From the NCBI GenBank assembly GCA_043813365.1, contig JBDRLB010000026.1, forward strand, positions 8,587-72,586: a stretch of DNA of 64,000 bases, given 5' to 3'. The notes beneath the pieces were generated by a model. It made no database searches. It was not told the origin of the DNA and worked only from the letters and a program-made list of their open reading frames with translations. Positions within the stretch are counted from its first letter, which is position 1. Each line of letters opens with the position of its first letter. The DNA comes from Candidatus Micrarchaeota archaeon. Its GTDB lineage: Archaea; Micrarchaeota; Micrarchaeia; Norongarragalinales; SBBD01. The position numbers were made by a program, and so were the translations under genes. Below are positions 37,011 to 58,783 of this stretch, piece by piece.

Positions 37011-37071
37011 AAATGTAATTAACGATAAAATCTCAAAGTTCATGCTTCGTACGAAGCAAAGGTGATAAAAA

Positions 37072-37296: not shown

Positions 37297-37302
37297 TGCC
37301 CT

Positions 37303-37866
37303 ATGGGTTTGGAGGCATTGAAGCAGGAGCTTAACCGCAAGACTGCAAGCGAGGCAAGCCGAATTGAAAACGAAGGCAGAGCGGAAGCCAAACTGATAAA
37401 GGAGGGCGCAAGGAAGGAAATGCAGAAACGCCAGGAGAAGGCGGAAAAGGACGCGGAGAATTTCGTGGAACGCGAGCGGATGCGCATACCCGCAGCGAGG
37501 CTGAAGGCGAAGCGCATAATCCAGGACGCGAAATACAGCCTGGTGGATGCAAGCCTGAAGGAGCTTGCGGAGATGCTTGAGGCTAAAACATCGAACAGGC
37601 GCGAATACGAAAAAACGCTGGAGGCGCTCATCAAGGACGGCCTTTCGGAGGTAGGGAAATCTGCGCTCATACATGTCCGTAAGCAGGACGCCGCATTCGC
37701 AAAGAAGTACGGAAAGGTTGTCGAAATCGGTTGCATGGGCGGCGCGATCATTTCTTCCGAGGATGGGAAGCTGCGCATCAACAACACCTACGAAGCCATA
37801 CTGGAGCGCAAGAGGGACGAGCTGGAACAGCAGGCGTTCGAAGCGATGTTCGGGAAAAAGAATTGA
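37303..37866 (+). CDS. atpE: A-type ATP synthase subunit E.
   Basis: 187 aa with a charged N-terminal helix and a globular C-terminus. Position in the operon. Confidence 0.75.
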   Translation: MGLEALKQELNRKTASEASRIENEGRAEAKLIKEGARKEMQKRQEKAEKDAENFVERERMRIPAARLKAKRIIQDAKYSLVDASLKELAEMLEAKTSNRREYEKTLEALIKDGLSEVGKSALIHVRKQDAAFAKKYGKVVEIGCMGGAIISSEDGKLRINNTYEAILERKRDELEQQAFEAMFGKKN

Positions 37867-37907
37867 ATTCCCCCTATATAGCAAAGTTGGGCCTCATTTT
37901 GGGTTTG

Positions 37908-38930: not shown

Positions 38931-38944
38931 ATAATGTAAAATGG

Positions 38945-39265
38945 TTGAATAATATGGACAAAATTCTCGTCCTTGGAGACAGGGACATGGTCACAGGGTT
39001 CAAACTCGTTGGGATACGCGACGCGATTGTTTGCAGCGCGGAAACAGCCGACCAGAAATTGGCCGAGCTGCTTGAAAGGCAGGATGCCGGGATAGTGATT
39101 TTCCAGGACGAGTTCTATGGGAACCTGTCGCACAAAACGAAAAAGCTGATTGAGACCGTTCCCAAACCGGTGGTTGTTTCCGTCGGCGTGAAAGCGGCCA
39201 GCTCCACCGAGAACCTGCAGGCGATGATCAAGCGCGCTATTGGGATTTCCCTAGACAAAATGTAG
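38945..39265 (+). CDS. atpF: A-type ATP synthase subunit F.
   Basis: 106 aa. N-terminus KILVLGDRDMVTGFKLVGI is typical of subunit F. Confidence 0.75.
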   Translation: MNNMDKILVLGDRDMVTGFKLVGIRDAIVCSAETADQKLAELLERQDAGIVIFQDEFYGNLSHKTKKLIETVPKPVVVSVGVKAASSTENLQAMIKRAIGISLDKM

Positions 39266-39420
39266 GCCTAGCCCACGCAATATTCGATCGGGATTTTGCT
39301 TGATAAAATGTAATCCGTGCCCACCTACATTGCTTAAACTCCCCAGTTTGCCCACCGCAATATATATTAAACTCAAATTTGTTCAATTACTCACCTGATT
39401 CCTTCCTGATAGGTGATTCG

Positions 39421-40791
39421 ATGAACAAGTTTGCCGCTGTTTTTGGTTTACTGATTCTTCTTTCCATTGAAGCGCTTGCTGCTCCGTCACAGATCGCATA
39501 CTGCCCTTACGGCGACTGCACGCTGAACATCCCGCGCAACAAGATGTTCCAATCGCTTTCGAATCCGAACGATATTTCCCTCATCATTGGGAACAACCAA
39601 ATGTACAACTATTTCAAATCCACTAATTCAGGGGACAGCTGGAGCAACTTTACCGTCCGCCCATTTTTAGGATTGCATTCGGGAATGTCCGGAGACACAA
39701 GCGGCAGCATTTATGTGACGGATGAGAGCATGGGCAGCGTTTATTTCAGGAAAATCAATTCACCTGCAAAATACCCCTCGGATCTCGGGCCGGAGATGTT
39801 CCTTGCAGTCGGCCCCACCGACTTGACGAGATCGGTGGTCCTTGCGCAGGATGCGAGCAACATCTGGGTATTCTACCGAACCGTATTGAACCAGTCTGGC
39901 AACGTAAGGTATTTCCGTTCAACTGACGGCGGAGTAACATTCCCGCAGCAGGGATGGGTGGAAAATACGGGCACGGATAATGTGAGGATTGGCTCTTTCC
40001 TTATAAGCGGCAAGCCCGCGGTAGTAATTTGGTACAGCGAAGACAGCTCTTATGCGGGCTGGGGTTTCCGTTACTTCATCTGGAACGGCAACGCATTTGT
40101 TGCGAACCCCGATTCAACAATAGTGTGGGGGTCGCAGATTTACCTGCGCGAATTCACGATGAATTACGTGAACAACGAAATGCACATAGTGTATGCGGAT
40201 ATGAATGGCAGATTGATGCATTCCTGGAAGGCATACAATAACGGCATAGGCAGCTGGAATCAAGTTGCAATTGAATCGCTTGCATATATGCCAAGGGACT
40301 GGCATCCGATTCTAACCAAGAGGGGGAACGAACTTTACCTGATTTACGTGAGGCAGGAGTCAACAATGGCTGGGAACAACAACCTCTATTACAGGAAGTG
40401 GAATCCTTTAACGAAGAAATGGGGGATTGCGGTTGCCATAACAACCGAAGGTGGCGCCAACCGCTTCCCACAGGTGCCTGCCATCCTAGCTGCCACTTCA
40501 AAAATAATCCCGTTGGCTTGGTCAAAAGACGCTTCTGTGATGTTCAACACAATCAGCATCCCCTTGCCCACTCCTACCCCCATCCCAACCATAAGGCCGA
40601 AATATAAGGAGGAAGCAGTTGCCCTTGAGAATGTGGGAATGGCAGTTGGCATCTCCTCGGGCCCATCCGGGGAAGTATTTTCCGGGATGCTTCTCGGATT
40701 AGCCATCATTGCGCTCGGCCTACTTTTCGCATGGAGGCACGGGCATTTCGAGAGCAAGCCAATGAAAAAGCAAAGGCGCAGGCGGCATTAA
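39421..40791 (+). CDS. Secreted BNR/Asp-box beta-propeller (sialidase-like fold) protein with C-terminal TM anchor; paralog of the N-terminal domain of the 47571 giant.
   Basis: Signal peptide. BNR motifs STNSGDSW and STDGGVTF. About 370 aa co-linear with the N-terminus of 47571-52682 (e.g. FRSTDGGVTFPQQGWVENTGTDNVRIGS vs FHSTDGGITFPQQGWVSDTGYDNVRIGS). PTPTPIP linker, TM helix and RRRRH tail. Confidence 0.65.
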   Translation: MNKFAAVFGLLILLSIEALAAPSQIAYCPYGDCTLNIPRNKMFQSLSNPNDISLIIGNNQMYNYFKSTNSGDSWSNFTVRPFLGLHSGMSGDTSGSIYVTDESMGSVYFRKINSPAKYPSDLGPEMFLAVGPTDLTRSVVLAQDASNIWVFYRTVLNQSGNVRYFRSTDGGVTFPQQGWVENTGTDNVRIGSFLISGKPAVVIWYSEDSSYAGWGFRYFIWNGNAFVANPDSTIVWGSQIYLREFTMNYVNNEMHIVYADMNGRLMHSWKAYNNGIGSWNQVAIESLAYMPRDWHPILTKRGNELYLIYVRQESTMAGNNNLYYRKWNPLTKKWGIAVAITTEGGANRFPQVPAILAATSKIIPLAWSKDASVMFNTISIPLPTPTPIPTIRPKYKEEAVALENVGMAVGISSGPSGEVFSGMLLGLAIIALGLLFAWRHGHFESKPMKKQRRRRH

Positions 40792-40841
40792 ATTTTTAAT
40801 AAGAGTAAGCGTTTTTTAAGGAGGAAGCGGTTAAAATTTCC

Positions 40842-43800
40842 ATGCGGAAATTAATCCTTTTGCTGCTTCTCCTATTCGCACTTGATGTGCCGGCCCCCGA
40901 TGTCACTACTTGCGGCACAATCACGCAGGCGGGCGGCATTTATACCCTCCGGAACGACCTCCACGCACAGGGGGGGTGCATGGTTTTTGCATCCACCGCT
41001 ACCGGAGCAACACTCGACCTGAACGGTTATACCATCTACTACGGAGAGGCGGCGGATGGCACTCCGGCAAATCCCGATTTTGAGAGCTGCAGCGGCGGAA
41101 TCCCTGCCGGATGGGATGTTAGCGCTGCGCCTTCAAGCACATGCATTGTTGGCGATTATTACTACCGGACAGCCTACCTGCTAAATGGGGAAATCGTCCC
41201 CGGTTCGCATTCCTTCCAAATGACCTTTTCAAGCGGGGAGACGAAATCCATACTGTCCAGTCCGGTAAGCCTTGCAGGAGGGGCCATTTACGTACCCCAA
41301 GTGAGGTTTTTGATGCCATCAAGCTACCGTTATGTCACCACCCTCACAACCGCCAATGATCAGAACATCTGGCGCTCCACAAATGGCGGCACATCCTTTA
41401 GTCGCGCAACGCCGGATTTTAACGGCGCCGAGTATCAGAATGCCAAAGCGATCGCGATCAATAGGAACAACAATTACCTTTATGTTATTGAGGACGACGA
41501 GGACGTGTGGCGTTCAACCGACAGGGGCGTAAGCTGGACAAAAATCGCATCCAATTTCAATGGCAGGGCGATCGTAGGAAGCTCGCTCATGGATGCTAAC
41601 CGTGTAAAGGGGGCAGTAGTTGCGAGCGATAACAGCATCATCGCAATTGATGAAGTATCCGACGTTTGGCGATCCACCGATGGAAGCACTTGGACGAAGG
41701 TCAATGACGATTTCAACGGCGGCGAGGCCGACAATTTAAATTCCATGACGATAAACGGGAACAATATAATTTTCGCAATATCGGGTACCTCGAGTGGATC
41801 CAATGTCTGGCGCTCGTCCGATTTTGGGTCCACCTGGGCGCTTGTTGGAGGGATTGCGGGGCTTGTCACTGCAATAGGCGCAGACAGGAGCAACAACCTG
41901 ATCGCATTCAACGATGCAAAAGCAGTTTTCAGATCGACAGACAATGGTGCAAGCTGGCCGTCAATAGGCACTGTCAGCTCTACGGGGGGCAATATCCGGC
42001 AATTGGTGGCGGATTCAAGCAATACTCTCATCATCCTTGCAGACGGTTTGGGCAGAGGCCAGATCTCGCCGGATTCTGAAATTTTCACCTCAACAAATGG
42101 CGGCGCAAGCTGGACTAGAACAAATGATGATTACAACGGCAATAGCGGCTCGCAGGCAGCTTCCATGGCAATTGCCTCCGACAACGAATTGTTCATTGCA
42201 TCAGGCCCGTTATATGAGACTTCCATAACTGGCGGGAATTGGTTCGGGGCATTCGCACGGTACCCGTGGCTTCCATCCGTCACGGATTCGCAAAGCAATA
42301 TCCGGAGGTATACTCTCCTGACAAACGAAGCCGTTTCCGCACGGTTCAGGATTTCAATTATTGCGCCCCAAGGGTCGACGACTCCTGCCTACATAGACGA
42401 GGTCAGGCTGGTGCCTGCAATGTATTATGCCGTGGATGCCCAGTACGCAAGGGGCGTCAAAATAACAAACGGCAATATTGTCCAGGTGAATGACGGATTT
42501 TGGCTGAACAACATCTGGGCCGCCCAAAACGCGGAAATTTCCTACATCCATGGAACTGTGAAGGGCTTGGACAGCTTCAACATCCTTCATGGCTCCGGCC
42601 ACATCCACCATAATGTCTTCGAAAGCCGAGGAGTGTACTCAACTAGTGAACGGCAGTATGTGTATGCTCCTGTTTACATCGCATGCAGCCTAATCAACTC
42701 CTTCCACGACAACCAGATTTATGCAAGGTCGCATGCCGGTGCAAAATTAAGCGGCGATGTGTATAACAACTACGTCCAGATAGATTCGAGGAACAGCAAC
42801 GGCTTTGGCATTTTTTCAGAATCCGGGTGCACGGCAGGAATGCTCGTCCATCACAATACGATCAACGCGATAAATGGCAGGGGTGTGGGCGCAAACGACA
42901 ACGATATAGTTGACAGCAACATCATCACCGCAACCGAACGTTCCAATCAGGAGTATAACCCTTTTGCGAACGGCCTCTACCTGATCTCATATGGGATTCA
43001 AACAGAAACCGATGACAATGTGACCCTCACGAATAATTCAATTACCGTAAGGACCAACCCGATGTATGGCGATGCTGCCGGGTTGCGGATTACGGGCAAT
43101 GTCGGTCTTAGCAGGATCATGAACAATAAAGTAACCGTGATTAAGGAACAGGCGGACAATACGAGGGCAGTTGCGTTGTGGCCTGCCCAGGAGAATGTTG
43201 CGCAACCGGGATTGATGGGCTCTTTATTCAAGAACAACGAGTTCATCTCCAATAATTACTTAATAATGGCCGAAGCAGTCAGCAATGCCTTTCTCGATTC
43301 AAATACCTTCAGGCGCGGGCCGAATCCGATTGGTTTTACATCCCTTTATTTCCGGATAGCAACTTCGAACTTCACTCTCCTCAATTCCACCCTTCTCGAC
43401 GGAGCTTCCCAGGAGGCGACCTTCAACTGCGGCTCGGGCTGCAGCTACAATGTTGAATGGTACCTTATTGTGAGGGCGCAGGACGGGAGCGGGAATGGAA
43501 TTCCTGGCGCAACTGTGCGGATAACCGATTCGACAGGCGCAGTTATAGTCAACGGCCAATCGGTCGCATCCGATGGCACATACACCCGTTCACTCCGCCA
43601 ATTCACAAATGCAGGCACTTCCGGCTCAGGCACAAAAACATATTATACTCCCCACACTGTCAGTGTCACTTCCGGTACCCAAACAATCACAAAATCATTG
43701 ACGATGGATCGTTCTTTTCTCGAGCCTTTCGTTTTCGGGCCCTGCACGAACGGCCAGACGCAAAGCTGCATAACATCACAAAGCTGCCCTGGCACCATGA

Positions 43801-46800
43801 CGTGTTCCGGAGGAACTTGGGGTTCTTGCATAGATAATTCTGGGGACGGCTGCCCCGCGCCCTCCCCGTCCGTTGTTCCGAGCCCTTCCCCCTCACCATC
43901 AGCTAGCCCCTCTGCATCTGCTTCACCAAGTGTTGCTCCCTCGCCTTCCCCTTCGCCCCAACCTCCCGCAGGAAATATTTTCGGCAATATTTACCTTACG
44001 GGCACCCCCCGCGGAGTTGGCGCAGCAAAGAGATGCACCTTATTCACCTCCAACTCAAACATTTACGCAACAGCAATCAATGCCCATTTTGCCGGCAGTT
44101 CCGGAACCTCATGCGCTTTCGGGGTTTACCAGGGAGGGAGTGACAGTCTCTCGATGCTACTCTATTCCAGCAGCGCCTTTTCCGTTACCAGCACAACAGC
44201 AGCCTGGCGCACTCAAACAATAGGAAGCCTCTACCTTCCAGCAGGGCAATACGGCTTATGCGTGATGTGCAACGGCGATTGGGCGTATTCCTCCTATGAG
44301 CCCCCTGCAGGGGTAATGCGCGGGAATTCCATCCTAAGTTTCGAGACCCCATTCACTTCAGCAGGCCAATGGACTGGCGCATACAACACGTCTATTTTTG
44401 TCAACATCACTTCCGGCTTGCCTTCCGCATCTCCCTCACCAAGCCCTTCTCCCCTGCCTGACACAACCCCTGCTGTTTTAAGCAACGGCGCACCTACGGG
44501 CACCCTCCCAATAGGGACAGCAACCGCAACCCTCTCCTTGAATACGAACGAAGCCGCAACCTGCCGCTACAGCACAACCCCCAATGTCGCTTACGCATCA
44601 ATGACGAACACCTTCACAACAACCGGAGGCACTTCCCATTCGCGCTCCTTAACTGGTTTGCAGAATGCCCAAACATACAACTATTATGTCAGGTGCATTG
44701 ATGCAGCAGGGAATGCAAACCCCACGGATTATGCAATAACTTTTTCAGTTGCAGGGGATACCGCTGCTCCAAGTTTAAGCAACGGCGCCCCAACCGGAAC
44801 GCTTCCCCAAGGCACCATATCGACCACACTCTCCCTGAACACAAATGAAGCCGCAACCTGCCGCTACAGCACAACCCCCAATGTCGCATATTCTTCCATG
44901 ACCAACACCTTCACAACAACCGGAGGCACCTCCCACTCGCGCACATTGACCGGTTTGCAGAACGGCCAATCCTACAATTACTATGTAAGGTGCATCGATA
45001 CCGCCGAAAACGCCAATACGGCTGATTATGCGATTTCCTTCAGTGTTGCTGCTGATACGATCCCAGCAATTCTCAGCAATGGCCTTCCAACCGGCACACT
45101 CCCAATTGGGACAACTTCCGCAACCCTTTCCATAAGCACAAACGAAGCCGCAACCTGCCGCTACAGCACAACCCCCAATGTCGCATATTCTTCCATGACC
45201 AACACCTTCACAACAACCGGAGGCACCTCCCATTCGCGCTCCTTAACTGGTTTGCAGAACGGCCAATCTTATGCTTACTATGTAAGGTGCATTGACACAG
45301 CAGGGAATGCCAACCCTACTGATTACGCAATTTCCTTCAGCGTCGCAACAGATACGACTTCCCCGGCTGCAATTACCAATCTCGCTGCCAGCTCCTCAAC
45401 TGATACGCAAGTAACATTGCAATGGACTTCTCCGGGCGATGACGGCTCAGCAGGAATAGCGACCTCTTATGACGTCCGCTATTCAACTTCCGCGATTACC
45501 GCAGCGAACTTCGGGGGAGCAATACCGGCAACAGGCGAACCCAGCCCGCAAGTTGCGGGCTCAACCGAATCTTATACGGTTTCCGGACTTTCTGCTTCAA
45601 CCACGTATTATTTTGCAATAAAAACAGCAGACGAAATTCCCAATTGGTCGGCTCTCTCAAATGTCATCACGAGGACAACTAACCCAACTCCGGATACAAC
45701 CGCGCCGGTGCTTTCCAACCCCAGGCCTGCAAGGAATTACATCTTCCCCTCGGGCACAACCTCAACAGTAATCGGCTTTGATACGAACGAGCCCGCAAGC
45801 TGCAGGTTCAGCACGGTGCAAGGGGTGCCATACAATTCAATGACCAGCTCGTTTATTGCAACAGGAAATTCCCATTCCGCAACTGTTTCATCCCTCCAGA
45901 ATGGCCAATCTTACAATTATTATGCAAGATGCATTGACACTTCGGGGAATTTGAACAATTCCGATTATCCGCTCTCATTCAGCATCGCATTGCCGACGCA
46001 GGATTTGAATCCGGATGTTTACCTGAATTCGCCATCTTCCGGGGCTACCGCTTACAGGGAGAGCATGCTTTTCAATTGCTCTGCAATTGATGATGCCGCA
46101 CTCGCCTCCCTTGAAATGTACGGGAATTTCTTCGGGGAATGGGGCATCATCGGAAATTACCCTGTTTCCGGAAAGCAGGCAACTGCCACATACAATATTG
46201 ACCTTTCATTGGTGCCGGCAGGAACCTACAGGTGGAATTGCCGTGCAACGGACAACGCAACTCACCAAAGCTTTGCCGCATCTAACTTCTCCCTCATGCT
46301 GATAGACCGCATTTACGATTTCATGCTTTCACCAGCAATTGATGCATTCTCTGCTTCAAACGATCCTGGCACCGTCACCAACCGGACCTATACGCTGAGG
46401 AACACCGGCAACCAATACCTTTCCGGATTCTCATGCACTGCAAGCGAGAGCTGGGTTTCCATATTCAATTGCCCAGTAGGTTTGCAGCCGGGGAATTCGT
46501 CAATTGTAATTGCCAGCTACAGTACGGGCAGCTTGCCTGAAGGAGCGCATGCGGTTTCACTCAATTTCTCCCAGCCGAATGCGGATTTCCGCCTCGCATC
46601 GGTAAATGTCAATGTTACCTCCGCACCTTACAATCCGATTCCGGTTATTTCCAATGTTTCCAACTCAACCAGCTATTCCTCCGTGATTATAAGTTGGAAC
46701 ACCGACATAAATAGCAATTCCACTGTGCTCTTTGGCACTAGCAATGCGAGTTTGGATAAAAATTCCTCCATCAATGACAACGTCCTTCTCCACTCCATAA

Positions 46801-47480: not shown

Positions 47481-47485
47481 TTAAA

Positions 47486-47516
47486 GCGGCCGCCTTATAC
47501 GCGGCCTAATTTTTTT
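47486..47516 (+). terminator. Hairpin (GGCCGC-cttatac-GCGGCC) followed by a T7 run.
   Basis: Perfect 6-bp GC stem immediately downstream of the 40842-47480 stop, followed by TTTTTTT. Confidence 0.4.
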
Positions 47517-47570
47517 ATCTTCTTCGGGAGCATATATATATCAGACCGACCTACTTTTTCCAGTGATTTT

Positions 47571-52682: not shown

Positions 52683-52739
52683 GCGCGGCGCCCCCATCGA
52701 GCCATAAGCAAAGGAATTGCCTTAGATGAAGGCGCTGGT

Positions 52740-52747
52740 TTAAATAC
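52740..52747 (+). promoter_or_regulatory. TATA box (TTTAAATA) about 26 bp upstream of the ATG at 52770 (leaderless-type).
   Basis: Spacing typical of archaeal leaderless promoters. Confidence 0.35.
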
Positions 52748-52769
52748 GGATAAAAATTAACTTTAAAGC

Positions 52770-53900
52770 ATGGTGGAAAAATTCTGGCTATTGGCACCCT
52801 TGCTGATTTTCGCCGCAATCCCGGCATATGCGCAGGAGGCGCCTCCCTCTCTCCCTCCCGGAGGTTTCGAGGTGAATCTGTTCTTCGTTGATTCCTACAC
52901 TTCGGAGCCGCTGCGTGAGAGGATGGTGCTTGCAATTTATTCGGCCAACGATACGCAGGAGTGGGTGCTGAGGAAAACGGACGGCCGGGGCGTAATCGCG
53001 CTTATAATGGATGGCGGCACCTACGACCTTGTTGGGGAAATCAACGACCGTGCCGCCTCACCCGGAAATGATTTTTTCGCGAGGAAACGGCTTTCCATAG
53101 AATCCAGCCGGAATTTCACCGTGCAGATGATGCCCGTCGGCACTCTCATCGGCACCGTGCTTTTGGACAATTATGCGGTTGAAAACGCACGGATCTCCCT
53201 GAAGTGCGCATCATCACTTTACGACATGGGCGAATTCTACAGGAATGTCAAAACTGACGAGCTCGGCACGTTTTCGCTGAGGAACGTCCCGGCTGAAAGC
53301 TGCGAAATATTTGCCAGCTACAATGGAAAATCGGGCAGGGAAAACATTGCACTGCAGCAAGGGCAGCTGCTCCGGGTGGATATACGACTCGAGCAAAAAT
53401 TATCCGAGAACCCCGGGCCGAACTATTTGGAGATCATCCTGATACTCTTTTCCTTCCTCGTATTGGGCCTGGTGGTTTACAAGAAATATTTCGCGGAAAA
53501 AAAGGTTCATTTCAGGGGCGTTGGAAATAAGGGCATGGAAACTGGCGAAAAAAAATCTGTTGCTGCGGATAGGAAAATTATCCCTAAAAAAATAAATAAT
53601 AAATTGGAGAGTGCGGAGGAATCCGGATCAGGTGATATTGCTGGCAAAGGGGGAAAAGTCCGAGTCAACAAGAAAATGGATGGCATCATACGCACGCTGA
53701 ATGAGAACGAGAGGAAAATAATCGAATTCATCATTGCCCAGAATGGAAGGAGCCGCCAGAACCGGATTTACCATGCGCTGCTGATACCGAAAGTGTCGCT
53801 CTCGCGCGCAATATTTTCGCTGGAGAACAAGAACATCGTGAAAACGCGCTCTCTGGGGAAGGTGAAGGAAGTTGAATTGAGTGATTGGTTTCTCCAGTGA
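52770..53900 (+). CDS. Membrane-anchored one-component regulator: signal peptide + extracellular carboxypeptidase-regulatory-like beta-sandwich + single TM + cytoplasmic winged helix-turn-helix.
   Basis: Signal peptide MVEKFWLLAPLLIFAAIPAYA. CarboxypepD_reg-like unit (GTVLLDNYAVENARISL...DELGTFSLRNVPAESCEIFASYNG). TM helix YLEIILILFSFLVLGLVVY. C-terminal wHTH of MarR/ArsR type (NENERKIIEFIIAQNGRSRQNRIYHALLIPKVSLSRAIFSLENKNIVKT). Confidence 0.55.
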   Translation: MVEKFWLLAPLLIFAAIPAYAQEAPPSLPPGGFEVNLFFVDSYTSEPLRERMVLAIYSANDTQEWVLRKTDGRGVIALIMDGGTYDLVGEINDRAASPGNDFFARKRLSIESSRNFTVQMMPVGTLIGTVLLDNYAVENARISLKCASSLYDMGEFYRNVKTDELGTFSLRNVPAESCEIFASYNGKSGRENIALQQGQLLRVDIRLEQKLSENPGPNYLEIILILFSFLVLGLVVYKKYFAEKKVHFRGVGNKGMETGEKKSVAADRKIIPKKINNKLESAEESGSGDIAGKGGKVRVNKKMDGIIRTLNENERKIIEFIIAQNGRSRQNRIYHALLIPKVSLSRAIFSLENKNIVKTRSLGKVKEVELSDWFLQ

Positions 53901-54006
53901 ATGAGCTAAATAGGCGGAATTTGGCTTATTTTCCTATAAAGAGGTCTATTTAATGTTATTTTTCAGATTTTAAGTAAAATTAATTATTTATAATCAAAAT
54001 GAAGCT

Positions 54007-54030
54007 ATTTGGTACGATTTATTACCAAAT
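54007..54030. promoter_or_regulatory. Perfect palindrome ATTTGGTA-N8-TACCAAAT between the regulator gene and the CARDB gene.
   Basis: 8-bp perfect arms with an 8-bp spacer, 16 bp upstream of a TATA-like TTTAAATA (54046-54053). Confidence 0.3.
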
Positions 54031-54151
54031 TGATCCGCCCAACCTTTAAATATCGCTTGAAGTAATCATAATACCCACTTAGGCAAAATTGCCATGCCAG
54101 AGCAAACCCGGCTTGCCGTTTTGCCAGTTATAGTAAACAAGGTGCGTTTGA

Positions 54152-56971
54152 ATGAATAAGTCGATTGCATTCTTTGTATGTGCGGTTTTCATTTTTTCAT
54201 TGCTTCCTTTTGCATATGCAACAACCCCTACTCCGACAATTTCCCCCTCTCCGACTGTGATTGAAAGCGGAACCGCAACCAGCGGCGGAATAGGAGGGAC
54301 GGCGATCCTAATAAAATCCTATTCCTATACGGTTAATTTCAAGCAAGGCTGGAACCTGTTTTCAGTGCCGCTTACGAACAGCAGGATCATTTCAACTGAT
54401 TGCGTGAAAAAGCCCATATATTATTACAATACGGGGCAAAACCAGTATTATTCACAAGGAGGGTTTGCTGTTGGAACTGAATTGCTAGGTGGTTTCGGCT
54501 ACTGGTACAAATCAGATTACAATTGCAAGGCAACTTTCATGGGCTCCGGCCATTATGCACTTCCGTTTGGAATGGAGCTAGGGGCAGGCTGGAACCAGAT
54601 TGGCGCGCCATACGATACAATTAATTTCAAAGAGATGGCGGGCAACTGCGATGTTGTTTCGGGGCCCTACAAATTCAATACTGCTGCTTACAAATGGGAA
54701 AAAGCAGAAATGCTCCAGAAAGGGGAGGGGTACTTCATCAAAGTGAGGAACGCATGCGCACTCAGTGCACAGCCGCCCAATCCGCCAGAATCCCTGCCAG
54801 ACCTGACAATTTCAGAATTGCCATCGATGCCGTCGCCCAATGCCGGAGATACAATTTCCCTGAAGTACATCGTGAAGAACATTGGCCCTGGCAAAGCGGG
54901 CTCCTCGGTGCTTAAAATCGGAGGCAACACTGGTGGGCTGTATTCAGTCCCTTCATTAGGTGCGGGCGAGCAATATGCGGCGTACCACAAATTCATCGTC
55001 CCTTCCTCGCAAGTGCAGATAATCGTGACTGTTGATTCAAACAACCAGGTTGAGGAAAGCAATGAGAACAACAATCAATTCGTGCAGTACCTATATGTGG
55101 GGAATAACACCCAGAAAGGGTTCGATCCCGGGATCGTGGAGATTTCCCTCTCAAATAGCAACCCTAAGGCGGGCGAAGCGTTTACCATAAATATTCCAGT
55201 AAAGAATTACGGGGATGTGGGCGGCTACATCACTAGCTTCTCACTCGGCCTTACTGGCGGCGGAGAGGGAAATAACCTCGGTGGAGGGTTCGGCATGGCG
55301 GAGGGCGGAAACAGGTACCTCGGTCCCGGGGAAACCTATATTTACCAGGCAAACAGCCAAGTCCTTCCAACTGGGGGAATGTGGACTGCAACCGCAACTA
55401 TTAGCGCAACGAACGACATCAATGCGGGGAACAACGTATACAAAAGAACGCTCTATGTGGCTCCTGCCAGCACCGGATTCGACCTCGGGATATATGTGAT
55501 TTCCATTTCACCCTTATCGCCTAAGGTAGGCGACACCATCACCGTCACTGCCTATCTCTATAATTATGGCGACACGGGCGGTTATCTGAAAGGGCACTCC
55601 TTTTCGATTTCAGGGCCAACTGGTGCCCAAGGCGGAAGCGCTACCTCGCCCGTATCGGGCACGTACATTGGAGGTCACCAATATTATACTCTGAGTTCAA
55701 CATTTTCAAACACTTTCAATGCGGCCGGGAGCTGGAATGTCAAGGCGTCAATCAGCCCGGAGGGCGACATCAATTCCGCAAACAACCAGCTGGATAAGCA
55801 ATTTGCCGTCAGCGAGTCCCCAACCAACTGCGAGTATTATGGTGACGGCTCGAGGTCGGGAATGAAAATCAACTGCAAATGGCATGCAAACAACGGCTAC
55901 ATCGTGCAGCTGAAGGACGTATCCTCATTCGCGCCCCAGAGGGCGCAATTTGATGTGCTGACATCTGCCGGTTCACTCGTAAAGAGGGTGTATTTGGGAA
56001 CAGGTGAAAGCACCGTTGTTACTGAAGCGGGGAATCTTTACCTATACGTAAATAACATGGCATTTTACCAACCCGCCACGAATTCCTATGTTGACCTGAC
56101 AATAAAATCAAACTACCAGCAGAATACTGGCTTCGACCTTGGAGTATATTCAATAAGCATTTCACCGCAGCAGCCGAAAGTGGGCGAATCTGTCACAATA
56201 ACTGCCAATCTCTACAATTACGGGGATACGGGCGGCTACCTGAAGGGGCACAGCTTCAATTTTGAAGGCCCCCAGAGTTCCATGGGTGGCGGCGGGGGCT
56301 CTGCGCCAATAAGCGGTGGAACTGGAATTTACATCGCAAGCCATCAATATTACACAATAACCTCCACGTTTGCAAACACATTCAATACGGCTGGAAACTG
56401 GAAGGTGAAAGTAACAATCAACCCGGAAAATGACTACAATTCTGCAAACAATCTCATGGATAAGACCTTCTACGTCGAAGCGCAAGGGACCAATACGACC
56501 CCCTCGCCATCTATTTCTCCCACTCCTTCAATTACCGCGACTCCGTTCACTCCCCAATTCTTTGACCTTTATATCAGGAATTCGTATTGGGCTTCCCCAT
56601 CACTGATTTCGCTCTTCAATCCTGCCGACAGGTGGAGGTTTGTCGGAACGCAGCAGCTTGCATCCAGCGGGTCATACGTTTCCATTGCCGGAATGGAGGA
56701 TTCGATAAATTTTGACCGCGATTACAACGACATGGCTTTTGACGTGACTTCGGTGAATGATGTCAAGCGCGTCTCGGTCAAGATCAATTCCTGCAATTCA
56801 GCCGCTGCGGATGCAGTTTGGGTAAAATACCTCCAGCCGGGGAATTCAACGGCAATGATAATGGAAACGAACGAATATGTAATCGGGGAATATCCGGAGA
56901 TAATGGTATTTCCCCAATGCTCCGGGAATGAGGGAAAATCCCGGTCCGTGTGGATCTACGGGGCCGCATAA
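54152..56971 (+). CDS. Secreted 939-aa protein with an N-terminal ~180-aa domain shared with the next gene and multiple CARDB-like repeats.
   Basis: Signal peptide. CARDB-like units (LPDLTISELPSMPSPNAGDTISLKYIVKNIGPGKAG...). Two long near-identical internal repeats (GFDLGIYVISISPLSPKVGDTITVTAYLYNYGDTGGYLKGHSF... vs GFDLGVYSISISPQQPKVGESVTITANLYNYGDTGGYLKGHSF...). GGTG SD 8 nt before the ATG. Confidence 0.65.
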   Translation: MNKSIAFFVCAVFIFSLLPFAYATTPTPTISPSPTVIESGTATSGGIGGTAILIKSYSYTVNFKQGWNLFSVPLTNSRIISTDCVKKPIYYYNTGQNQYYSQGGFAVGTELLGGFGYWYKSDYNCKATFMGSGHYALPFGMELGAGWNQIGAPYDTINFKEMAGNCDVVSGPYKFNTAAYKWEKAEMLQKGEGYFIKVRNACALSAQPPNPPESLPDLTISELPSMPSPNAGDTISLKYIVKNIGPGKAGSSVLKIGGNTGGLYSVPSLGAGEQYAAYHKFIVPSSQVQIIVTVDSNNQVEESNENNNQFVQYLYVGNNTQKGFDPGIVEISLSNSNPKAGEAFTINIPVKNYGDVGGYITSFSLGLTGGGEGNNLGGGFGMAEGGNRYLGPGETYIYQANSQVLPTGGMWTATATISATNDINAGNNVYKRTLYVAPASTGFDLGIYVISISPLSPKVGDTITVTAYLYNYGDTGGYLKGHSFSISGPTGAQGGSATSPVSGTYIGGHQYYTLSSTFSNTFNAAGSWNVKASISPEGDINSANNQLDKQFAVSESPTNCEYYGDGSRSGMKINCKWHANNGYIVQLKDVSSFAPQRAQFDVLTSAGSLVKRVYLGTGESTVVTEAGNLYLYVNNMAFYQPATNSYVDLTIKSNYQQNTGFDLGVYSISISPQQPKVGESVTITANLYNYGDTGGYLKGHSFNFEGPQSSMGGGGGSAPISGGTGIYIASHQYYTITSTFANTFNTAGNWKVKVTINPENDYNSANNLMDKTFYVEAQGTNTTPSPSISPTPSITATPFTPQFFDLYIRNSYWASPSLISLFNPADRWRFVGTQQLASSGSYVSIAGMEDSINFDRDYNDMAFDVTSVNDVKRVSVKINSCNSAAADAVWVKYLQPGNSTAMIMETNEYVIGEYPEIMVFPQCSGNEGKSRSVWIYGAA

Positions 56972-56989
56972 TTTTAAATGAGGTGTTTT

Positions 56990-58783
56990 ATGAACAAATA
57001 CGTTGTGATTTTTGGGGCGATGCTTCTGGTTGCAAGCATGGTATTTGCCACTAACGAATCTGCCACGCCTACGGTTTCATCCGCGTCTTCGGGCGGAGGG
57101 AGCGGAGGGGGAGTAGCTGTTGCAATTAAGGCTACTACTACTTCCGAGAAAATGGTTCCGATATTCCCCTGTTCGAGCAAATATGCGAATCCCTCGAATT
57201 GCATAGTGGATGATGAGATGCCGCCATTGCCGGATGATGATTCGGCATCCGCATATTCTATTACGCTCAATTTGCGCAAGGGCTGGAACATGATTTCCTT
57301 CCCCTACCTTATGCGCCTCTATTACGAGAATGGCGGCGGATCCTACCCTACAATCAAAATTGTGAGGAACACATGCGATTCCACACAACTTATGCACTAC
57401 GATCCGGGAAATTCGGCAAAATGGGAGACGTGGGTGCTTGGAGGCACGGGGACTGGTGCGCCTTTCCTTGGCTATTGGTACAAGGCGAGCAGGGACTGCA
57501 GCATCACCATCGAGGGAAACGAGAAAGTTGATGCTAACTCCAAATACCTTTATGCGGGCTGGAACCAGATTGGTGCATCTTCGAGCGAGGTCACCTTCAG
57601 TTTAATGACCGGCACATGCACGATCACTTCCGGGCCATGGAAATACAATGCATACGCGAAGCAGTATGAAAAAGCGTCCACGCTGATTCCCGGAATAGGG
57701 TATTTCGTGAAAGTAGCTGCCAATTGCATGCTTTCAGAAAACGAAGAAATGCCGCCCTTCCCGACTGAGCAGCCAATCGTGACGGTTTACCCGACAATAC
57801 GGCCCACTTATTACCCGACAATTTATCCCAGCCCTCAGCCATACAAGCCAACCATTCTCCACCGGACAATAAGGGACTGCACAACTGACCGTATAATGAC
57901 GCAGGCGGAGTCACTGAACATTGATGTGAACTCTGCGGAATACAAGGGGCTCACGCTTGATGATCCCGTGAAGAACATCCAGACGATCGATTTGCGCGTC
58001 ATCCAGGGGGGGCAATACGGCAATTACATGTGCAAGAGCAGGAAGCTAGAGCAGTGCGAGCTGGTGCAAACTACCGCCCAGAAACAGCTGATGCTGGACC
58101 TCAATTTCGACGAAGGCTCAGGCAACGTGCTGAAATCCTCCACCAACAGCCTTCAGGCAACTGCTACGAATCCCATATGGGTGGAAGGAAAATCCGGGAA
58201 AGCACTGATGTTCAATGGCAACTCCTACGTAAGGATTCCAAGCAACCCCGCGCTTAATTTGGGCGACCGTTACCTGATCGAATTGTGGTTCCAGCCGATT
58301 ACGGACCCCAACACGTGGTCAGGAAGCTACCAGACAATGGTCAGCAAGGAAGGAGAATATATTTTCAGGTTTGCCAACGGCCATGATGAGAAGGGCAATG
58401 GGAGGATACTCAGCACCATAGATTTCGGCGCAGGGATAGACCAGCATGCGAATGCGTACCTTCCGGGCTTCAGGTACGGAGGGGGCAGTTATGCAGGCCA
58501 CGAAACAGGGGACATCGAATTCGTTCCGGGCAACTGGTACAAGATGGAAATGGAATATGACGGCGCCTACCTCAACCTTAGAGTGAACGGGCAGACGATT
58601 TCGAGGACGAAAACGAGCAGGAACAAAGTATCCGGCAATAATGACCTGTACATTGGCTCGCACATCAACGGCATCGACCGGCTTATAGGCATAATAGATG
58701 AAGTGAAAATCTGGAGCACAAGCGCTTCAATGTACGACCCGAAAGACATCTACTACGATGAATGGTGCGAATACGGGCGCTGA
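56990..58783 (+). CDS. Secreted protein with a shared N-terminal domain and a C-terminal concanavalin A-like/LamG lectin domain.
   Basis: Signal peptide MNKYVVIFGAMLLVASMVFA. N-terminal domain homologous to 54152 (GWNQIGA, GYWYK, GYFVKV motifs). C-terminus LDLNFDEGSGNVLKSS...ALMFNGNSYVRIP...YLIELWFQP...LYIGS...IDEVKIW is typical of Laminin_G_3. Confidence 0.65.
   Translation: MNKYVVIFGAMLLVASMVFATNESATPTVSSASSGGGSGGGVAVAIKATTTSEKMVPIFPCSSKYANPSNCIVDDEMPPLPDDDSASAYSITLNLRKGWNMISFPYLMRLYYENGGGSYPTIKIVRNTCDSTQLMHYDPGNSAKWETWVLGGTGTGAPFLGYWYKASRDCSITIEGNEKVDANSKYLYAGWNQIGASSSEVTFSLMTGTCTITSGPWKYNAYAKQYEKASTLIPGIGYFVKVAANCMLSENEEMPPFPTEQPIVTVYPTIRPTYYPTIYPSPQPYKPTILHRTIRDCTTDRIMTQAESLNIDVNSAEYKGLTLDDPVKNIQTIDLRVIQGGQYGNYMCKSRKLEQCELVQTTAQKQLMLDLNFDEGSGNVLKSSTNSLQATATNPIWVEGKSGKALMFNGNSYVRIPSNPALNLGDRYLIELWFQPITDPNTWSGSYQTMVSKEGEYIFRFANGHDEKGNGRILSTIDFGAGIDQHANAYLPGFRYGGGSYAGHETGDIEFVPGNWYKMEMEYDGAYLNLRVNGQTISRTKTSRNKVSGNNDLYIGSHINGIDRLIGIIDEVKIWSTSASMYDPKDIYYDEWCEYGR

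What the first reader, a model, noticed from the sequence alone, without database searches (positions are those of the whole stretch)
39379..58783. A ~19-kb cell-surface island has replaced the catalytic half of the A-type ATPase operon and carries its own membrane-anchored regulator
The atp block H-I-K-E-C-F ends at 39265. Where atpA/atpB/atpD normally follow, there are instead five secreted or surface genes plus one regulator. These are a 470-aa BNR propeller protein, two tandem giants of 2212 and 1703 aa, a TM-anchored wHTH regulator, a CARDB-repeat protein and a LamG lectin protein. The giants and the 470-aa protein share co-linear modules, so the locus has grown by duplication and module shuffling. 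Abundant N-x-S/T sequons and PS-rich linkers suggest a glycosylated S-layer or adhesin-type array. In a compact archaeal genome this much dedicated surface machinery, with a cognate regulator, resembles a host- or substrate-attachment system of the kind expected in episymbiotic small-genome archaea.
Basis: partly seen in the sequence, partly recalled or inferred. Interest (0 to 1): 0.7.

Follow-up and report, generated by a model that had tools for sequence, protein, structure and literature searches.

The report
Micrarchaeal surface-protein locus with membrane-anchored regulator
Next to half of an ATP-synthase operon, a tiny DPANN archaeon carries an old, conserved trio (a membrane-anchored DNA-binding regulator plus two secreted adhesin-like proteins) and a newer 13-kb insertion of three giant surface proteins; the island did not displace the missing ATP-synthase genes, because the operon was already split in all relatives.

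Summary
The ORFs, coordinates and most domain calls are correct. The headline interpretation is not. The window comes from a Micrarchaeota (DPANN) archaeon. In five independent related genomes atpF is followed directly by the regulator homologue, then CARDB and LamG genes, then DHH and the prepilin peptidase. None has atpA/B/D after atpF. So the operon split is ancestral to this clade, and regulator+CARDB+LamG (52770-58783) is a conserved module rather than an island.

Only p470, g2212 and g1703 (39421-52682, about 13.3 kb) are specific to this lineage. They lie between atpF and the conserved regulator promoter. All three are intact type-I membrane proteins built from shuffled modules: a sialidase-fold propeller head, an Asp-box propeller nested in a beta-helix, a cassette flanked by PS linkers, and a shared stalk/anchor.

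The regulator has a signal peptide, two pilin-like beta-sandwiches, a TM helix, a linker and a C-terminal wHTH. Homologues in eleven distinct loci, in at least four genomic contexts, all precede a secreted-protein gene. In ten of those eleven, GGAAC-type half-sites sit beside the target's TATA box: GGAACG-N14-CGTTCC, exact or nearly so, in seven.

N-glycosylation sequons are depleted, not abundant. The surface locus is ordinary for DPANN. The regulator-operator pair is new.

The parts
34696..39265 (+). atpH-atpI-atpK-atpE-atpC-atpF, the membrane/stalk half of the A-type ATP synthase. It is context, not part of the surface module.
   Evidence: Pfam V_ATPase_I, vATP-synt_E, vATP-synt_AC39 and ATP-synt_F, with a weak V-ATPase_G match for atpH. 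The 74-aa c-subunit ORF lies at 37072-37296. The same order and the same end point are seen in five relatives.
39242..39337 (+). Tandem 48-nt duplication of the atpF 3' end. Copy 1 contains the real stop codon; copy 2 is a degenerate 'GILLDKM*'.
   Evidence: 27 of 35 positions identical, and 0 of 200 shuffles reach this. Absent from relatives, whose atpF ends ...DKL*.
39360..39371 (+). TATA-like box (ATATATATTAAA) of p470. A GGTGAT Shine-Dalgarno sequence lies just before ATG 39421.
   Evidence: Read directly from the sequence.
39421..40791 (+). p470 (456 aa from the ATG). Signal peptide, six-bladed sialidase-fold propeller (about aa 23-380), short PT linker, C-terminal TM helix, basic tail.
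   Evidence: AlphaFold2 pLDDT 86.8, pTM 0.81. Foldseek hits to GH145, PL42 and GH33 sialidases. Two Asp boxes. The family has 123 representatives, including bacterial T9SS and dockerin proteins. TM segment.
40842..47480 (+). g2212 (2212 aa). Signal peptide, beta-helix cap (aa 21-86), nested Asp-box propeller (about aa 165-480), rest of the beta-helix (529 to about 870), Ig domain, Cys knot, PS linker, 150-aa cassette (1046-1195), PS linker, 3 x 99-aa repeats, FN3, shared C-terminal stalk module (1721-2150), TM helix (2154-2179), tail.
   Evidence: Pfam Sortilin-Vps10, fn3, Pur_ac_phosph_N. Five strict Asp boxes and the cap alignment to g1703 659-716 at E 8e-9. Modules. 3 x 297-nt repeat at 44458-45351. 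Linkers. TM helix.
47571..52682 (+). g1703 (1703 aa). Signal peptide, p470-like propeller head (19-384), PS linker, 150-aa cassette (440-589), PS linker, beta-helix plus Ig plus Cys knot (640-1216), shared C-terminal stalk module (1218-1650), TM helix (1644-1674), tail.
   Evidence: blastp module map. Pfam Pur_ac_phosph_N and Big_3. Linkers. TM helix. Few homologues anywhere.
52739..52746 (+). TATA box (TTTAAATA) of the regulator gene, about 24-31 nt upstream of its ATG, which suggests a leaderless or short-leader mRNA.
   Evidence: Conserved in the atpF-to-regulator spacer of all five relatives (alignment A2). It marks the right-hand limit of the insertion.
52770..53900 (+). reg376, a single-pass transmembrane transcription regulator. 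Signal peptide (1-22), two beta-sandwich ectodomains (33-209), TM helix (219-242), disordered linker (247-294), C-terminal winged helix (301-375).
   Evidence: AlphaFold2. Foldseek matches the ectodomain to Gram-positive pilin (CnaB/prealbumin-like) folds. Pfam CarboxypepD_reg and DUF7343, both below the curated cut-off. PF24034 is precomputed on most family members. The wHTH is the most conserved region (alignment A1).
54011..54036 (.). Candidate operator, GGTACG-N14-TGATCC. This is a degenerate copy (3 of 12 core positions changed) of the clade's inverted repeat GGAACG-N14-CGTTCC.
   Evidence: Orthologous by alignment A4. The repeat is exact in L002, L003, L004, L005 and L016. L007 and L017 carry a short-spacer variant. 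On its own the window copy is not distinguishable from chance: 34 matches against 26.5 expected.
54045..54052 (+). TATA box (TTTAAATA) of the CARDB-LamG unit, 8 nt downstream of the repeat.
   Evidence: Alignment A4 and direct reading of the sequence.
54152..56971 (+). cardb939. A secreted protein with a signal peptide and no anchor, an N-terminal module shared with the LamG protein (56-212), and CARDB/DUF11-type repeats.
   Evidence: Pfam CARDB 84.8 bits. Shared module at 34% identity. Orthologues in all relatives.
56978..58783 (+). lamG601. A secreted protein with the shared N-terminal module (92-260) and a C-terminal LamG/ConA-like domain (413-582). The gap after cardb939 is only 6 nt, so co-transcription is likely.
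   Evidence: Pfam Laminin_G_3 46.4 bits. Gap. Orthologues at 48-55% identity in L003 and L006.

Best explanation
The 19-kb stretch consists of two units of different age in a Micrarchaeota (DPANN) genome.

(1) An ancestral, clade-conserved module. It begins with a single-pass transmembrane transcription regulator, in this order: cleavable signal peptide, two extracellular pilin-like beta-sandwich domains, TM helix, about 50 disordered residues, cytoplasmic C-terminal winged helix. This is followed by an operon for secreted CARDB and LamG proteins. I infer that the regulator dimer, tethered to the membrane, binds the inverted repeat GGAACG-N14-CGTTCC. That repeat abuts the BRE/TATA of the downstream promoter. 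In this way an extracellular cue sensed by the ectodomain would be coupled to expression of the secreted adhesin-like proteins.

(2) A lineage-specific insertion of about 13.3 kb, lying between the atpF stop codon and the regulator's promoter. It carries three paralogous, independently promoted, C-terminally membrane-anchored surface proteins. They were built by duplication and recombination of modules, probably through the repetitive PS-linker DNA. Their heads are sialidase-fold or Asp-box propellers plus beta-helices, so they most likely bind or cut acidic glycans on a partner cell or on a polymer.

The ATP-synthase operon is split after atpF in the whole clade. The island did not displace atpA/B/D.

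Shown: anatomy, synteny, module map, folds, conservation and placement of the repeat. Inferred: DNA binding by the regulator, the signal it senses, and glycan binding or cleavage.
For: Synteny and polarity.
- tblastn shows FtsY-SLT-RFC-SAHH-atpHIKECF-regulator-CARDB-LamG-DHH-prepilin peptidase in L002-L006 and L011, with no hit to p470, g2212 or g1703 at this position in any of them.
- An NJ tree of six conserved proteins nests the window beside L003 and L006, so insertion is the parsimonious polarity.
- An independent assembly reproduces the left junction at 100% identity.
- The right junction retains the conserved regulator promoter.

Regulator.
- AlphaFold2 gives SP / two beta-sandwiches / TM / linker / wHTH.
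- The wHTH is the most conserved part of the family.
- The gene after the regulator encodes a large secreted protein in four contexts: after atpF, after a GT4 glycosyltransferase (L016), after ribosomal protein L16 (L007), and elsewhere (L017, L045). In L019 an SLT_2 gene overlaps the regulator's stop by four nt, and the repeat lies after it, in front of the third gene, which is cut by the contig end.

Repeat.
- GGAACG-N(4-24)-CGTTCC occurs exactly once per relative locus, always 8-10 nt upstream of the target TATA box. There is only one other exact match in 300 kb (alignment A4).
- It tracks the target promoter even where opposite-strand genes separate it from the regulator (L004, L017).
- L019 shows a symmetric half-site change, and L045 has three direct GTTCCGC half-sites around the TATA box.

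Inserted proteins.
- Intact ORFs with a signal peptide and a TM anchor.
- Module map.
- p470 model and Foldseek hits to GH145, PL42 and sialidases at TM 0.58-0.67.
- 11 invariant residues in the head family, including five Arg, Lys or His.
- Bacterial homologues carry T9SS tails or dockerins.

Literature.
- In the micrarchaeon Mia14 the atp genes run K-E-C-F-A-B-D-G-H-I contiguously, and strain-specific propeller/CARDB/LamG surface proteins are described on genomic islands (PMC5498576).
Against: - No experiment links the regulator to the repeat. The link rests on conserved co-occurrence.
- The window's own copy of the repeat has 3 of 12 core mismatches and is not significant on its own, so the circuit may be weakened or retuned here.
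- The Pfam hit of the window protein to DUF7343 (24.5 bits) is below the gathering score of 27.6.
- No solved wHTH ranked among the 50 listed Foldseek hits, because the ectodomain dominates the search.
- The location of atpA/B/D in this genome could not be determined. The source contig has about 9 kb outside the window, and the assembly was not searchable.
- The head domains have a glycosidase-like fold, but catalytic residues were not mapped.
- The composition of the inserted genes is host-like, and no tRNA, integrase or flanking repeat marks the insertion. The mechanism and source of the insertion are unknown.
Confidence: 0.7

Rival explanations
1. One reading: a single ~19-kb surface island, with its own regulator, was inserted into a complete atpHIKECFABD operon and displaced or replaced atpA/B/D.
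For: atpA/B/D are absent from the window. The canonical archaeal order, and that of the micrarchaeon Mia14, places A-B-D directly after F (PMC5498576).
Against: Five independent relatives have atpF followed directly by the regulator-CARDB-LamG block without the three giants and without atpA/B/D. The break is therefore older than the insertion, and two thirds of the 'island' genes are ancestral. In L016 the regulator block has moved away from atpF altogether.
Confidence: 0.04
2. Assembly artefact: the atpF/p470 junction is a metagenomic mis-join, or the giant ORFs are chimeric.
For: The giant genes contain internal repeats and PS-linker repeats that break short-read assemblies. The second assembly's contig ends inside g2212. 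g1703 itself is missing from the protein database, while g2212 and reg376 from the same 72,978-bp contig are present.
Against: The left junction is reproduced at 100% identity in GCA_043808505.1. Both flanks are syntenic with relatives. Both giants are complete from signal peptide to TM anchor, with no frame break.
Confidence: 0.03
3. The three genes are ancestral at this site and were lost in the relatives, so the difference reflects deletion rather than insertion.
For: Surface-protein genes turn over fast. The inserted genes have host-like GC and GC3, and no mobility marks were found.
Against: This needs at least two independent, precise losses, one on each side of the NJ tree. Each loss would have to leave a spacer of roughly 90-140 nt and an intact regulator promoter. 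The distant homologue P0013 lies about 100 kb away on the L003 contig, not at this site.
Confidence: 0.1
4. The conserved inverted repeat is not the regulator's operator. It could be bound by another factor, or be a DNA/RNA hairpin. The TM-wHTH protein would then have another role, such as a membrane-tethered scaffold or a different regulon.
For: There is no binding data. The symmetric change in L019 would also preserve a hairpin. The window copy is degenerate although the wHTH is intact. The metagenome scan found no further sites that could define a regulon.
Against: The repeat lies upstream of the TATA box, so it is outside the target transcript. It follows the target promoter rather than the regulator's 3' end (L004, L017). 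It co-occurs with the regulator gene in four genomic contexts, across regulators only 26-31% identical. L045 has direct rather than inverted half-sites, which fits a protein site and not a hairpin.
Confidence: 0.22
5. g2212 and g1703 are the structural S-layer lattice or stalk proteins of the cell, rather than accessory adhesins or enzymes.
For: The architecture resembles SlaB or tetrabrachion-type anchors (from my own knowledge): beta-sandwich domains, a helical stalk segment, a C-terminal TM anchor, and PS-rich linkers that may be O-glycosylated.
Against: They are absent from this position in five related genomes, and homologues are very few among 5.8 billion proteins. Enzyme-like propeller and beta-helix heads are not typical lattice formers. 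The window encodes another giant (114-7700) that is conserved in relatives and is a better structural candidate.
Confidence: 0.12

Closest known systems
Transmembrane transcription regulators (TTRs): bacterial ToxR/CadC/TcpP and archaeal ArnR/ArnR1 of Sulfolobus acidocaldarius (PMC10269533, PMC6396743)
   Same: A one-component design, with a DNA-binding domain and a TM segment in one polypeptide. The regulator is encoded next to surface-structure genes; ArnR controls archaellum and type-IV-pili genes. It presumably acts on DNA from the membrane.
   Different: The topology is inverted relative to ToxR and CadC: cleavable signal peptide, N-terminal ectodomain, then a C-terminal cytoplasmic wHTH. 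There is no OmpR-type Trans_reg_C domain and no HAMP domain. The ectodomain is a tandem pilin-like beta-sandwich. The family is tiny and restricted to Micrarchaeota-like groundwater archaea. The DBD is DUF7343-like, a family with no literature in the searched library.
Strain-specific surface-protein islands of the micrarchaeon 'Ca. Mancarchaeum acidiphilum' Mia14 (Golyshina et al. 2017, PMC5498576)
   Same: Same phylum. Large secreted proteins combine beta-propellers, PKD/Ig-like domains and CARDB. LamG proteins are expanded. The genes lie near type-IV-pilus genes; here a prepilin peptidase lies at 60602-61564. They are proposed to mediate host contact.
   Different: Here CARDB/LamG are conserved core genes of the clade rather than island genes, and only the three anchored giants are lineage-specific. 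A dedicated membrane regulator and operator are present, which were not described for Mia14. In Mia14 the atp operon is contiguous (K-E-C-F-A-B-D-G-H-I).
Sialidase-fold six-bladed propellers: GH145 (BT3686, BACCELL_00856), PL42 FoRham1, GH33 sialidases
   Same: The fold of the p470/g1703 head: Foldseek E about 2e-9, TM normalised to target 0.65-0.67 for GH145. Asp-box motifs are present. A conserved set of Arg, Lys and His residues suggests an acidic-sugar site.
   Different: Sequence identity is only 9-14%. The window protein has no Pfam or NCBIfam family hit. Catalytic residues were not mapped. The head is fused to a membrane anchor or to giant stalks rather than being a free enzyme.
Canonical archaeal A1Ao ATP synthase operon atpHIKECFABD
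   Same: H-I-K-E-C-F are present in canonical order.
   Different: The operon ends after F in this whole clade, and A/B/D must be encoded elsewhere. Norongarragalinales MAGs are reported to have the A-ATPase, and one incomplete MAG yielded only A, B, D and I (PMC8561730).

Membership tests
Contiguous A-type ATP synthase operon (atpHIKECFABD) | Genes for H, I, K, E, C and F in one co-oriented block | tested here: met
   Pfam hits and the 74-aa c subunit, 34696-39265.
Contiguous A-type ATP synthase operon (atpHIKECFABD) | atpA, atpB and atpD directly downstream of atpF | tested here: not met
   Absent from the window and from all relatives' loci. The split is ancestral in the clade.
Transmembrane transcription regulators (TTR, sensu Demey et al. 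2023) | A predicted DNA-binding domain plus at least one TM region in one protein | tested here: met
   The AlphaFold2 model has a TM helix at 219-242 and a wHTH at 301-375. Hydropathy agrees.
Transmembrane transcription regulators (TTR, sensu Demey et al. 2023) | Sequence-specific DNA binding and control of target transcription from the membrane | not testable with these tools
   Only indirect evidence is available: the conserved inverted repeat at the neighbouring promoter.
ToxR/CadC-type regulators | N-terminal cytoplasmic OmpR-type wHTH (Trans_reg_C), TM segment, C-terminal periplasmic sensor | tested here: not met
   There is no Trans_reg_C hit. The domain order is reversed, with a signal peptide and a C-terminal wHTH.
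Pfam DUF7343 (PF24034) wHTH | Score above the gathering threshold of 27.6 bits | tested here: inconclusive
   The window protein scores 24.5 bits. PF24034 is precomputed on 7 of the 8 homologues in the first search, but not on the window protein itself, and on 8 of the 12 proteins in the profile search.
BNR/sialidase-fold six-bladed propeller | Six-bladed beta-propeller fold | tested here: met
   p470 model with pTM 0.81. The Foldseek top hits are GH145, PL42 and GH33.
BNR/sialidase-fold six-bladed propeller | Asp-box (S-x-D-x-G-x-x-W/F) repeats | tested here: met
   Two in p470, two in g1703 and five in g2212. Pfam BNR_2/BNR matches in 7 of 41 family members, but not in p470 itself.
GH33/GH145/PL42 enzymes | Catalytic residues in place: the Arg triad with a Tyr/Glu nucleophile, or the catalytic His | not tested
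   Invariant R39, K41, H86, R153, R189 and H255 exist in the family alignment. They were not superposed on known active sites.
CARDB domain proteins | Pfam PF07705 above the cut-off | tested here: met
   84.8 bits against a cut-off of 22.7.
LamG/ConA-like lectin superfamily | Pfam Laminin_G_3 above the cut-off | tested here: met
   46.4 bits against a cut-off of 27.6.
Mobile genomic island | Integrase or transposase, tRNA target, flanking direct repeats, deviant composition | tested here: not met
   No tRNA. No repeats flank the 13.3-kb block. GC and GC3 lie within the host range. No integrase domain was found in any ORF scanned.
N-glycosylated archaeal S-layer or surface glycoproteins | Enrichment of N-x-S/T sequons | tested here: not met
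   Sequons are depleted relative to composition in g2212, g1703, the CARDB protein, the LamG protein and g2528.

The most novel reading that the evidence does not exclude
The SP-ectodomain-TM-wHTH protein is a contact or ligand sensor. Its pilin-like ectodomain would detect a partner cell or a surface glycan. From the membrane it would directly switch on the adjacent secreted CARDB/LamG adhesins through the GGAACG-N14-CGTTCC operator. That would be the first defined signal-to-gene circuit for surface remodelling in DPANN archaea, and a TTR class with inverted (N-out, C-in) topology.
Probability: 0.15. Interest if true: 0.7.

Novelty: new variant of a known kind. Interest (0 to 1): 0.42.

Why it matters
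Almost nothing is known about how DPANN archaea regulate the surface proteins thought to mediate attachment. The result gives a concrete, testable pair:
- a roughly 75-residue wHTH that can be expressed on its own;
- a 26-bp inverted repeat conserved next to the TATA box across nine loci.

It also gives a natural comparison: the window's operator is degenerate, while relatives keep a perfect one.

The result corrects an attractive but wrong story. The ATP-synthase operon was not broken by the island; the split is a clade trait. The atpF/regulator boundary is also a recurrent rearrangement point, with an insertion here and a translocation in L016.

The three inserted proteins are a clear example of surface-protein evolution by cassette exchange at PS-linker DNA and by nesting one domain inside another.

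Tried and rejected
- Locating atpA/B/D in the same genome. The source contig (72,978 bp, locus tags ABIG96_) is not in the look-up index. tblastn with conserved A/B cores, written from memory, against the window and about 370 kb of related loci gave nothing better than E = 0.25. The question therefore rests on synteny and literature (PMC5864196, PMC5498576, PMC8561730).
- Scanning metagenome contigs for the operator (ATGGAACG-N14-CGTTCC-NCNCAA). There were 25 hits. Three were the already known genomes and 22 were chance matches with no regulator or TATA box. No extra regulon sites or lineages were found.
- Searching for the operator upstream of p470, g2212, g1703 and of the regulator gene itself. 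None was found.
- Pfam and NCBIfam on p470 gave no hit. The PDB sequence search gave only spurious 'Pizza' designed-propeller matches to one 30-residue stretch.
- Sequence search of the wHTH alone against the PDB gave only marginal Z-alpha-like hits, with a best E-value of 0.088.
- AFDB Foldseek for the regulator architecture was not possible because the library is not available.
- Rfam on the region gave no families. No tRNAs were found. The sigma-70 promoter scan was not applicable to archaea, and the call failed on length.
- Looking for compositional evidence of foreign origin of the insertion. GC and GC3 are host-like. The strong negative GC skew at 44-52 kb coincides with the C-rich third positions of g2212 and g1703 and with their PS-linker coding DNA.

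Full report
**1. What is in the sequence**

Upstream, atpH, atpI, atpK, atpE, atpC and atpF are confirmed. atpK is a 74-aa c subunit at 37072-37296. The block ends at 39265.

No ORF in the 64-kb window resembles atpA, atpB or atpD. Every ORF of 400 aa or more has another identity. tblastn with the highly conserved A and B cores found nothing.

The gene content is archaeal: RFC small subunit, eIF-6, ADP-dependent sugar kinase, A-type ATPase. The closest genomes are Micrarchaeota (DPANN) MAGs, one of them labelled Norongarragalinales.

**2. The island is two units of different age**

I mapped the window's proteins by tblastn onto five independent related genomes (L002-L006; L011 is the same genome as L004). 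All give one order: FtsY - SLT - RFC - small secreted protein - SAHH - atpH-I-K-E-C-F - regulator - CARDB protein(s) - LamG protein - DHH (opposite strand) - prepilin peptidase (opposite strand).

In every relative atpF is followed, after a spacer of roughly 90-140 nt, by the homologue of the 376-aa regulator. None has atpA/B/D there. None has a homologue of p470, g2212 or g1703 there.

A neighbour-joining tree of six conserved proteins places the window beside L003 and L006. L005, L002 and L004 form the other branch. The simplest history is one insertion of about 13.3 kb (39421-52682) in the window's lineage.

The insertion's right edge lies upstream of the regulator's own TATA box (TTTAAATA, 52739-52746). 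That box aligns with the atpF-regulator spacers of all relatives.

The left junction is not an assembly artefact. A contig of a different assembly (GCA_043808505.1) carries atpC-atpF-p470 and the start of g2212 at 100% identity.

So the break of the ATP-synthase operon after atpF is a trait of this clade, older than the three-gene insertion. In the micrarchaeon Mia14, from a different order, the genes run K-E-C-F-A-B-D-G-H-I contiguously (PMC5498576). Acidophilic Micrarchaeota and Parvarchaeota genomes carry A, B and D (PMC5864196, supplementary table). Norongarragalinales MAGs are reported to have the A-ATPase, and one incomplete MAG yielded only A, B, D and I (PMC8561730). This fits two separate loci. 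I could not locate A/B/D of this genome with the tools available.

**3. The three inserted genes**

All three are intact: signal peptide at the N-terminus, one TM helix near the C-terminus, and a short charged tail.

p470 most likely starts at ATG 39421 (456 aa). A GGTGAT ribosome-binding site and a TATA-like box (39360-39371) precede it.

The module map comes:

| Shared module | Position in first protein | Position in second protein | Identity |
|---|---|---|---|
| Propeller head | p470 33-393 | g1703 19-384 | 52% |
| Cassette | g2212 1046-1195 | g1703 440-589 | 69% |
| Beta-helix plus Ig | g2212 529-1005 | g1703 724-1216 | 29% |
| Stalk and anchor | g2212 1721-2212 | g1703 1218-1703 | 58% |

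- The 150-aa cassette is flanked by (Ser-Pro)n linkers in both proteins.
- The last 30 nt of the two stalk/anchor modules are 93% identical.
- The cassette and the beta-helix are in opposite order in the two giants. The proteins are related by shuffling, not simple co-linearity.
- g2212 residues 21-86 align with g1703 659-716 (E 8e-9). This is the N-terminal cap of the beta-helix. In g2212 an Asp-box propeller of about 440 residues is therefore nested inside the beta-helix domain. It has five strict Asp boxes and a Pfam Sortilin-Vps10 match.
- g2212 also carries three tandem 99-residue repeats (44458-45351) and FN3 domains.

p470 has no Pfam or NCBIfam hit. An exhaustive search found 123 representative relatives. 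Using 40 sequences aligned with p470 (39 of those relatives plus the g1703 head), AlphaFold2 gave a confident model with pLDDT 86.8 and pTM 0.81. Its nearest solved folds are:
- GH145 rhamnosidases (5MVH, 5MUM, 5MUK, 4IRT; TM to target 0.65-0.67);
- the PL42 rhamnose-glucuronate lyase (7ESK, 7ESN);
- GH33 sialidases.

The family has 11 invariant residues, including R39, K41, H86, R153, R189 and H255. Bacterial members carry type-IX-secretion tails or dockerins. This favours a glycan-binding or glycan-cleaving head over a purely structural role. Catalysis was not tested.

Homologues of the giants are very rare: 12 hits among 5.8 billion proteins. The one in a relative (P0013) sits about 100 kb from that genome's atp locus.

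GC and GC3 of the inserted genes are host-like. No tRNA, integrase or flanking repeat marks the block. Its source and mechanism are unknown.

**4. The conserved module: regulator, candidate operator, CARDB and LamG**

The AlphaFold2 model of the 376-aa protein (pLDDT 80) shows these parts:
- a signal peptide;
- two beta-sandwich domains (33-209) whose best structural matches are Gram-positive pilin domains;
- a TM helix (219-242);
- a disordered linker (247-294);
- a C-terminal helix-helix-strand-helix-helix-hairpin winged helix (301-375).

The winged helix is the most conserved segment of the family. It matches Pfam DUF7343, below threshold for the window protein but on record for most relatives.

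The family is tiny: 9 proteins by single-sequence search and 12 by profile search.

The gene after the regulator encodes a large secreted protein in four genomic contexts:
- after atpF (window, L002-L006);
- after a GT4 glycosyltransferase (L016, a close relative of L004, where the regulator block has been rearranged away from atp);
- after ribosomal protein L16 (L007);
- elsewhere (L017 and L045).

L019 is arranged differently. An SLT_2 gene overlaps the regulator's stop codon by four nt, so the two are probably co-transcribed. The repeat lies after it, in front of the third gene, which is cut by the contig end.

The linkage is therefore with the surface-protein gene, not with the ATPase.

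In the spacer before that downstream gene there is an inverted repeat:
- GGAACG-N14-CGTTCC is exact in L002, L003, L004, L005 and L016.
- L006 has one mismatch.
- The distant L007 and L017 have a shorter spacer.
- The repeat always ends 8-10 nt upstream of the TATA box.
- In 300 kb of held sequence the exact pattern occurs only once elsewhere, inside a coding region.
- Where opposite-strand genes lie between the regulator and its neighbour (L004, L017), the repeat stays with the neighbour's promoter.
- L019 carries GGACCG-N14-CAGTCC, a symmetric change in both half-sites.
- L045 has three direct GTTCCGC half-sites around the TATA box.

This is the pattern expected of the binding site of a dimeric wHTH protein abutting the BRE/TATA. 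Binding itself is inferred.

In the window the orthologous site (54011-54036) reads GGTACG-N14-TGATCC. Three of twelve core positions are changed, and on its own it is not distinguishable from chance. The circuit may be weakened or retuned in this lineage.

No such site precedes p470, g2212, g1703 or the regulator gene. The regulator is therefore the partner of the CARDB-LamG unit and not of the giants.

cardb939 and lamG601 are secreted, with a signal peptide and no anchor. They are separated by 6 nt. They share an unannotated N-terminal module of about 160 residues (34% identity) that is also found in the relatives' orthologues.

**5. Claims that fail**

- Sequons are not abundant. In 2000 shuffles per protein the observed counts are lower than expected for g2212 (21 against 37.2), g1703 (19 against 28.9), cardb939 (4 against 12.7), lamG601 (1 against 5.9) and the other giant g2528 (5 against 17.6). 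PS-rich linkers are confirmed and could be O-glycosylation sites, which is an inference.
- The episymbiont reading is plausible for a DPANN archaeon and matches what was described for Mia14 (PMC5498576). However, Norongarragalinales have been proposed to be weakly host-dependent or free-living (PMC12892359). Substrate or polymer attachment is an equally good reading.

**6. Comparison with known systems and verdict**

The surface-protein block is a new member of a kind already described in Micrarchaeota.

The regulator belongs functionally to the transmembrane transcription regulators, which are widespread in archaea (PMC10269533). ArnR is one that controls surface structures (PMC6396743). It differs in three ways:
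- it has the inverse topology to ToxR and CadC;
- its ectodomain is pilin-like;
- its DNA-binding domain belongs to an uncharacterised family, for which no paper was found in the searched library.

The regulator-operator pair is, to my knowledge, undescribed.

Interest is moderate and rests on the testable regulator-operator pair.

Noticed in passing
window 39242-39337: The last 24 nt of atpF plus 24 nt downstream are tandemly duplicated (48-nt unit; best 35-nt stretch 27/35 identical; 0 of 200 shuffles reach this). The second copy encodes a degenerate 'GILLDKM*'. The window's atpF ends ...DKM*, whereas all five relatives end ...DKL*. This may be a recombination scar at the left edge of the insertion, but both copies lie on the same side of the inserted block.
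   Followed up: partly
window 40842-58783 and 114-7700: N-x-S/T sequons are significantly depleted relative to amino-acid composition in every large secreted protein (for example 5 observed against 17.6 expected in the 2528-aa protein). This could mean selection against N-glycosylation sites, or absence of an AglB pathway in this organism.
   Followed up: partly
window 114-10555 and locus L016 1-9220: The block of a 2528-aa secreted giant (CarboxypepD_reg, Big_1), DUF373 and a GT4 glycosyltransferase is conserved in L016. There it lies directly next to the regulator-CARDB block. So about 29 kb that separates the two blocks in the window, including the atp genes, is elsewhere in that genome. 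The atpF/regulator boundary is a repeated rearrangement point.
   Followed up: partly
window 40905-42425 (g2212 aa 21-528): An Asp-box (Sortilin/Vps10-like) propeller of about 440 residues is nested inside a right-handed beta-helix domain, between its N-terminal cap and the first coils. g1703 has only about 8 residues at the same place.
   Followed up: yes
window 47450-47479 and 52652-52681: The cytoplasmic tails of g2212 and g1703 are nearly identical (YYVKKTH[FY]KITELQGIKS.PPEEKKP...SYEETLK; the last 30 nt are 93% identical). This is much more conserved than the rest of the shared module (58% protein identity). It suggests gene conversion or a conserved cytoplasmic partner.
   Followed up: no
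window 47571-52682: g1703 itself was not returned by the protein database search, although g2212 and reg376 from the same 72,978-bp NCBI contig were. It may be unannotated or flagged as a pseudogene in the deposited record, although the ORF is intact here.
   Followed up: no
window 58826-59083: A small ORF (85 aa from the ATG) lies just after the LamG gene. It has a lipobox-like signal peptide (LLLVGC) and a Pro/Ser/Thr-rich body with a repeated DDLPPLP motif. It is possibly a small lipoprotein of the same surface unit.
   Followed up: no
window 30816-31649; also L019 1143-1997: A secreted protein with a lytic transglycosylase (SLT) domain is conserved in this archaeal clade. In L019 an SLT_2 gene directly follows the regulator homologue. 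A peptidoglycan-cleaving domain in a wall-less archaeon hints at interaction with bacteria.
   Followed up: no
window 54053-54151; alignment A4 columns 60-95: Downstream of the CARDB promoter's TATA box a block (consensus ...GTAA..ATAGTCCGCAGGC...) is conserved across relatives. In the window the corresponding block begins GTAATC and is followed by GC-rich complementary stretches before the ATG at 54152. It could be a conserved initiator or 5'-UTR element. No Rfam family matches.
   Followed up: partly
L004/L011 11104-11740; L017 1090-1673: In two relatives small opposite-strand genes have been inserted between the regulator and its target promoter. In L017 these are a PIN/RHH toxin-antitoxin pair. 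The inverted repeat stays with the target promoter.
   Followed up: partly
window 10637-12374, 15363-16508, 32643-33137: Further secreted or surface genes are present: two PEGA-domain proteins, a NosD-like beta-helix protein and a small SP+TM Cys-rich protein. Counting the island and the 2528-aa giant, nearly half of the 64-kb window encodes envelope proteins.
   Followed up: no
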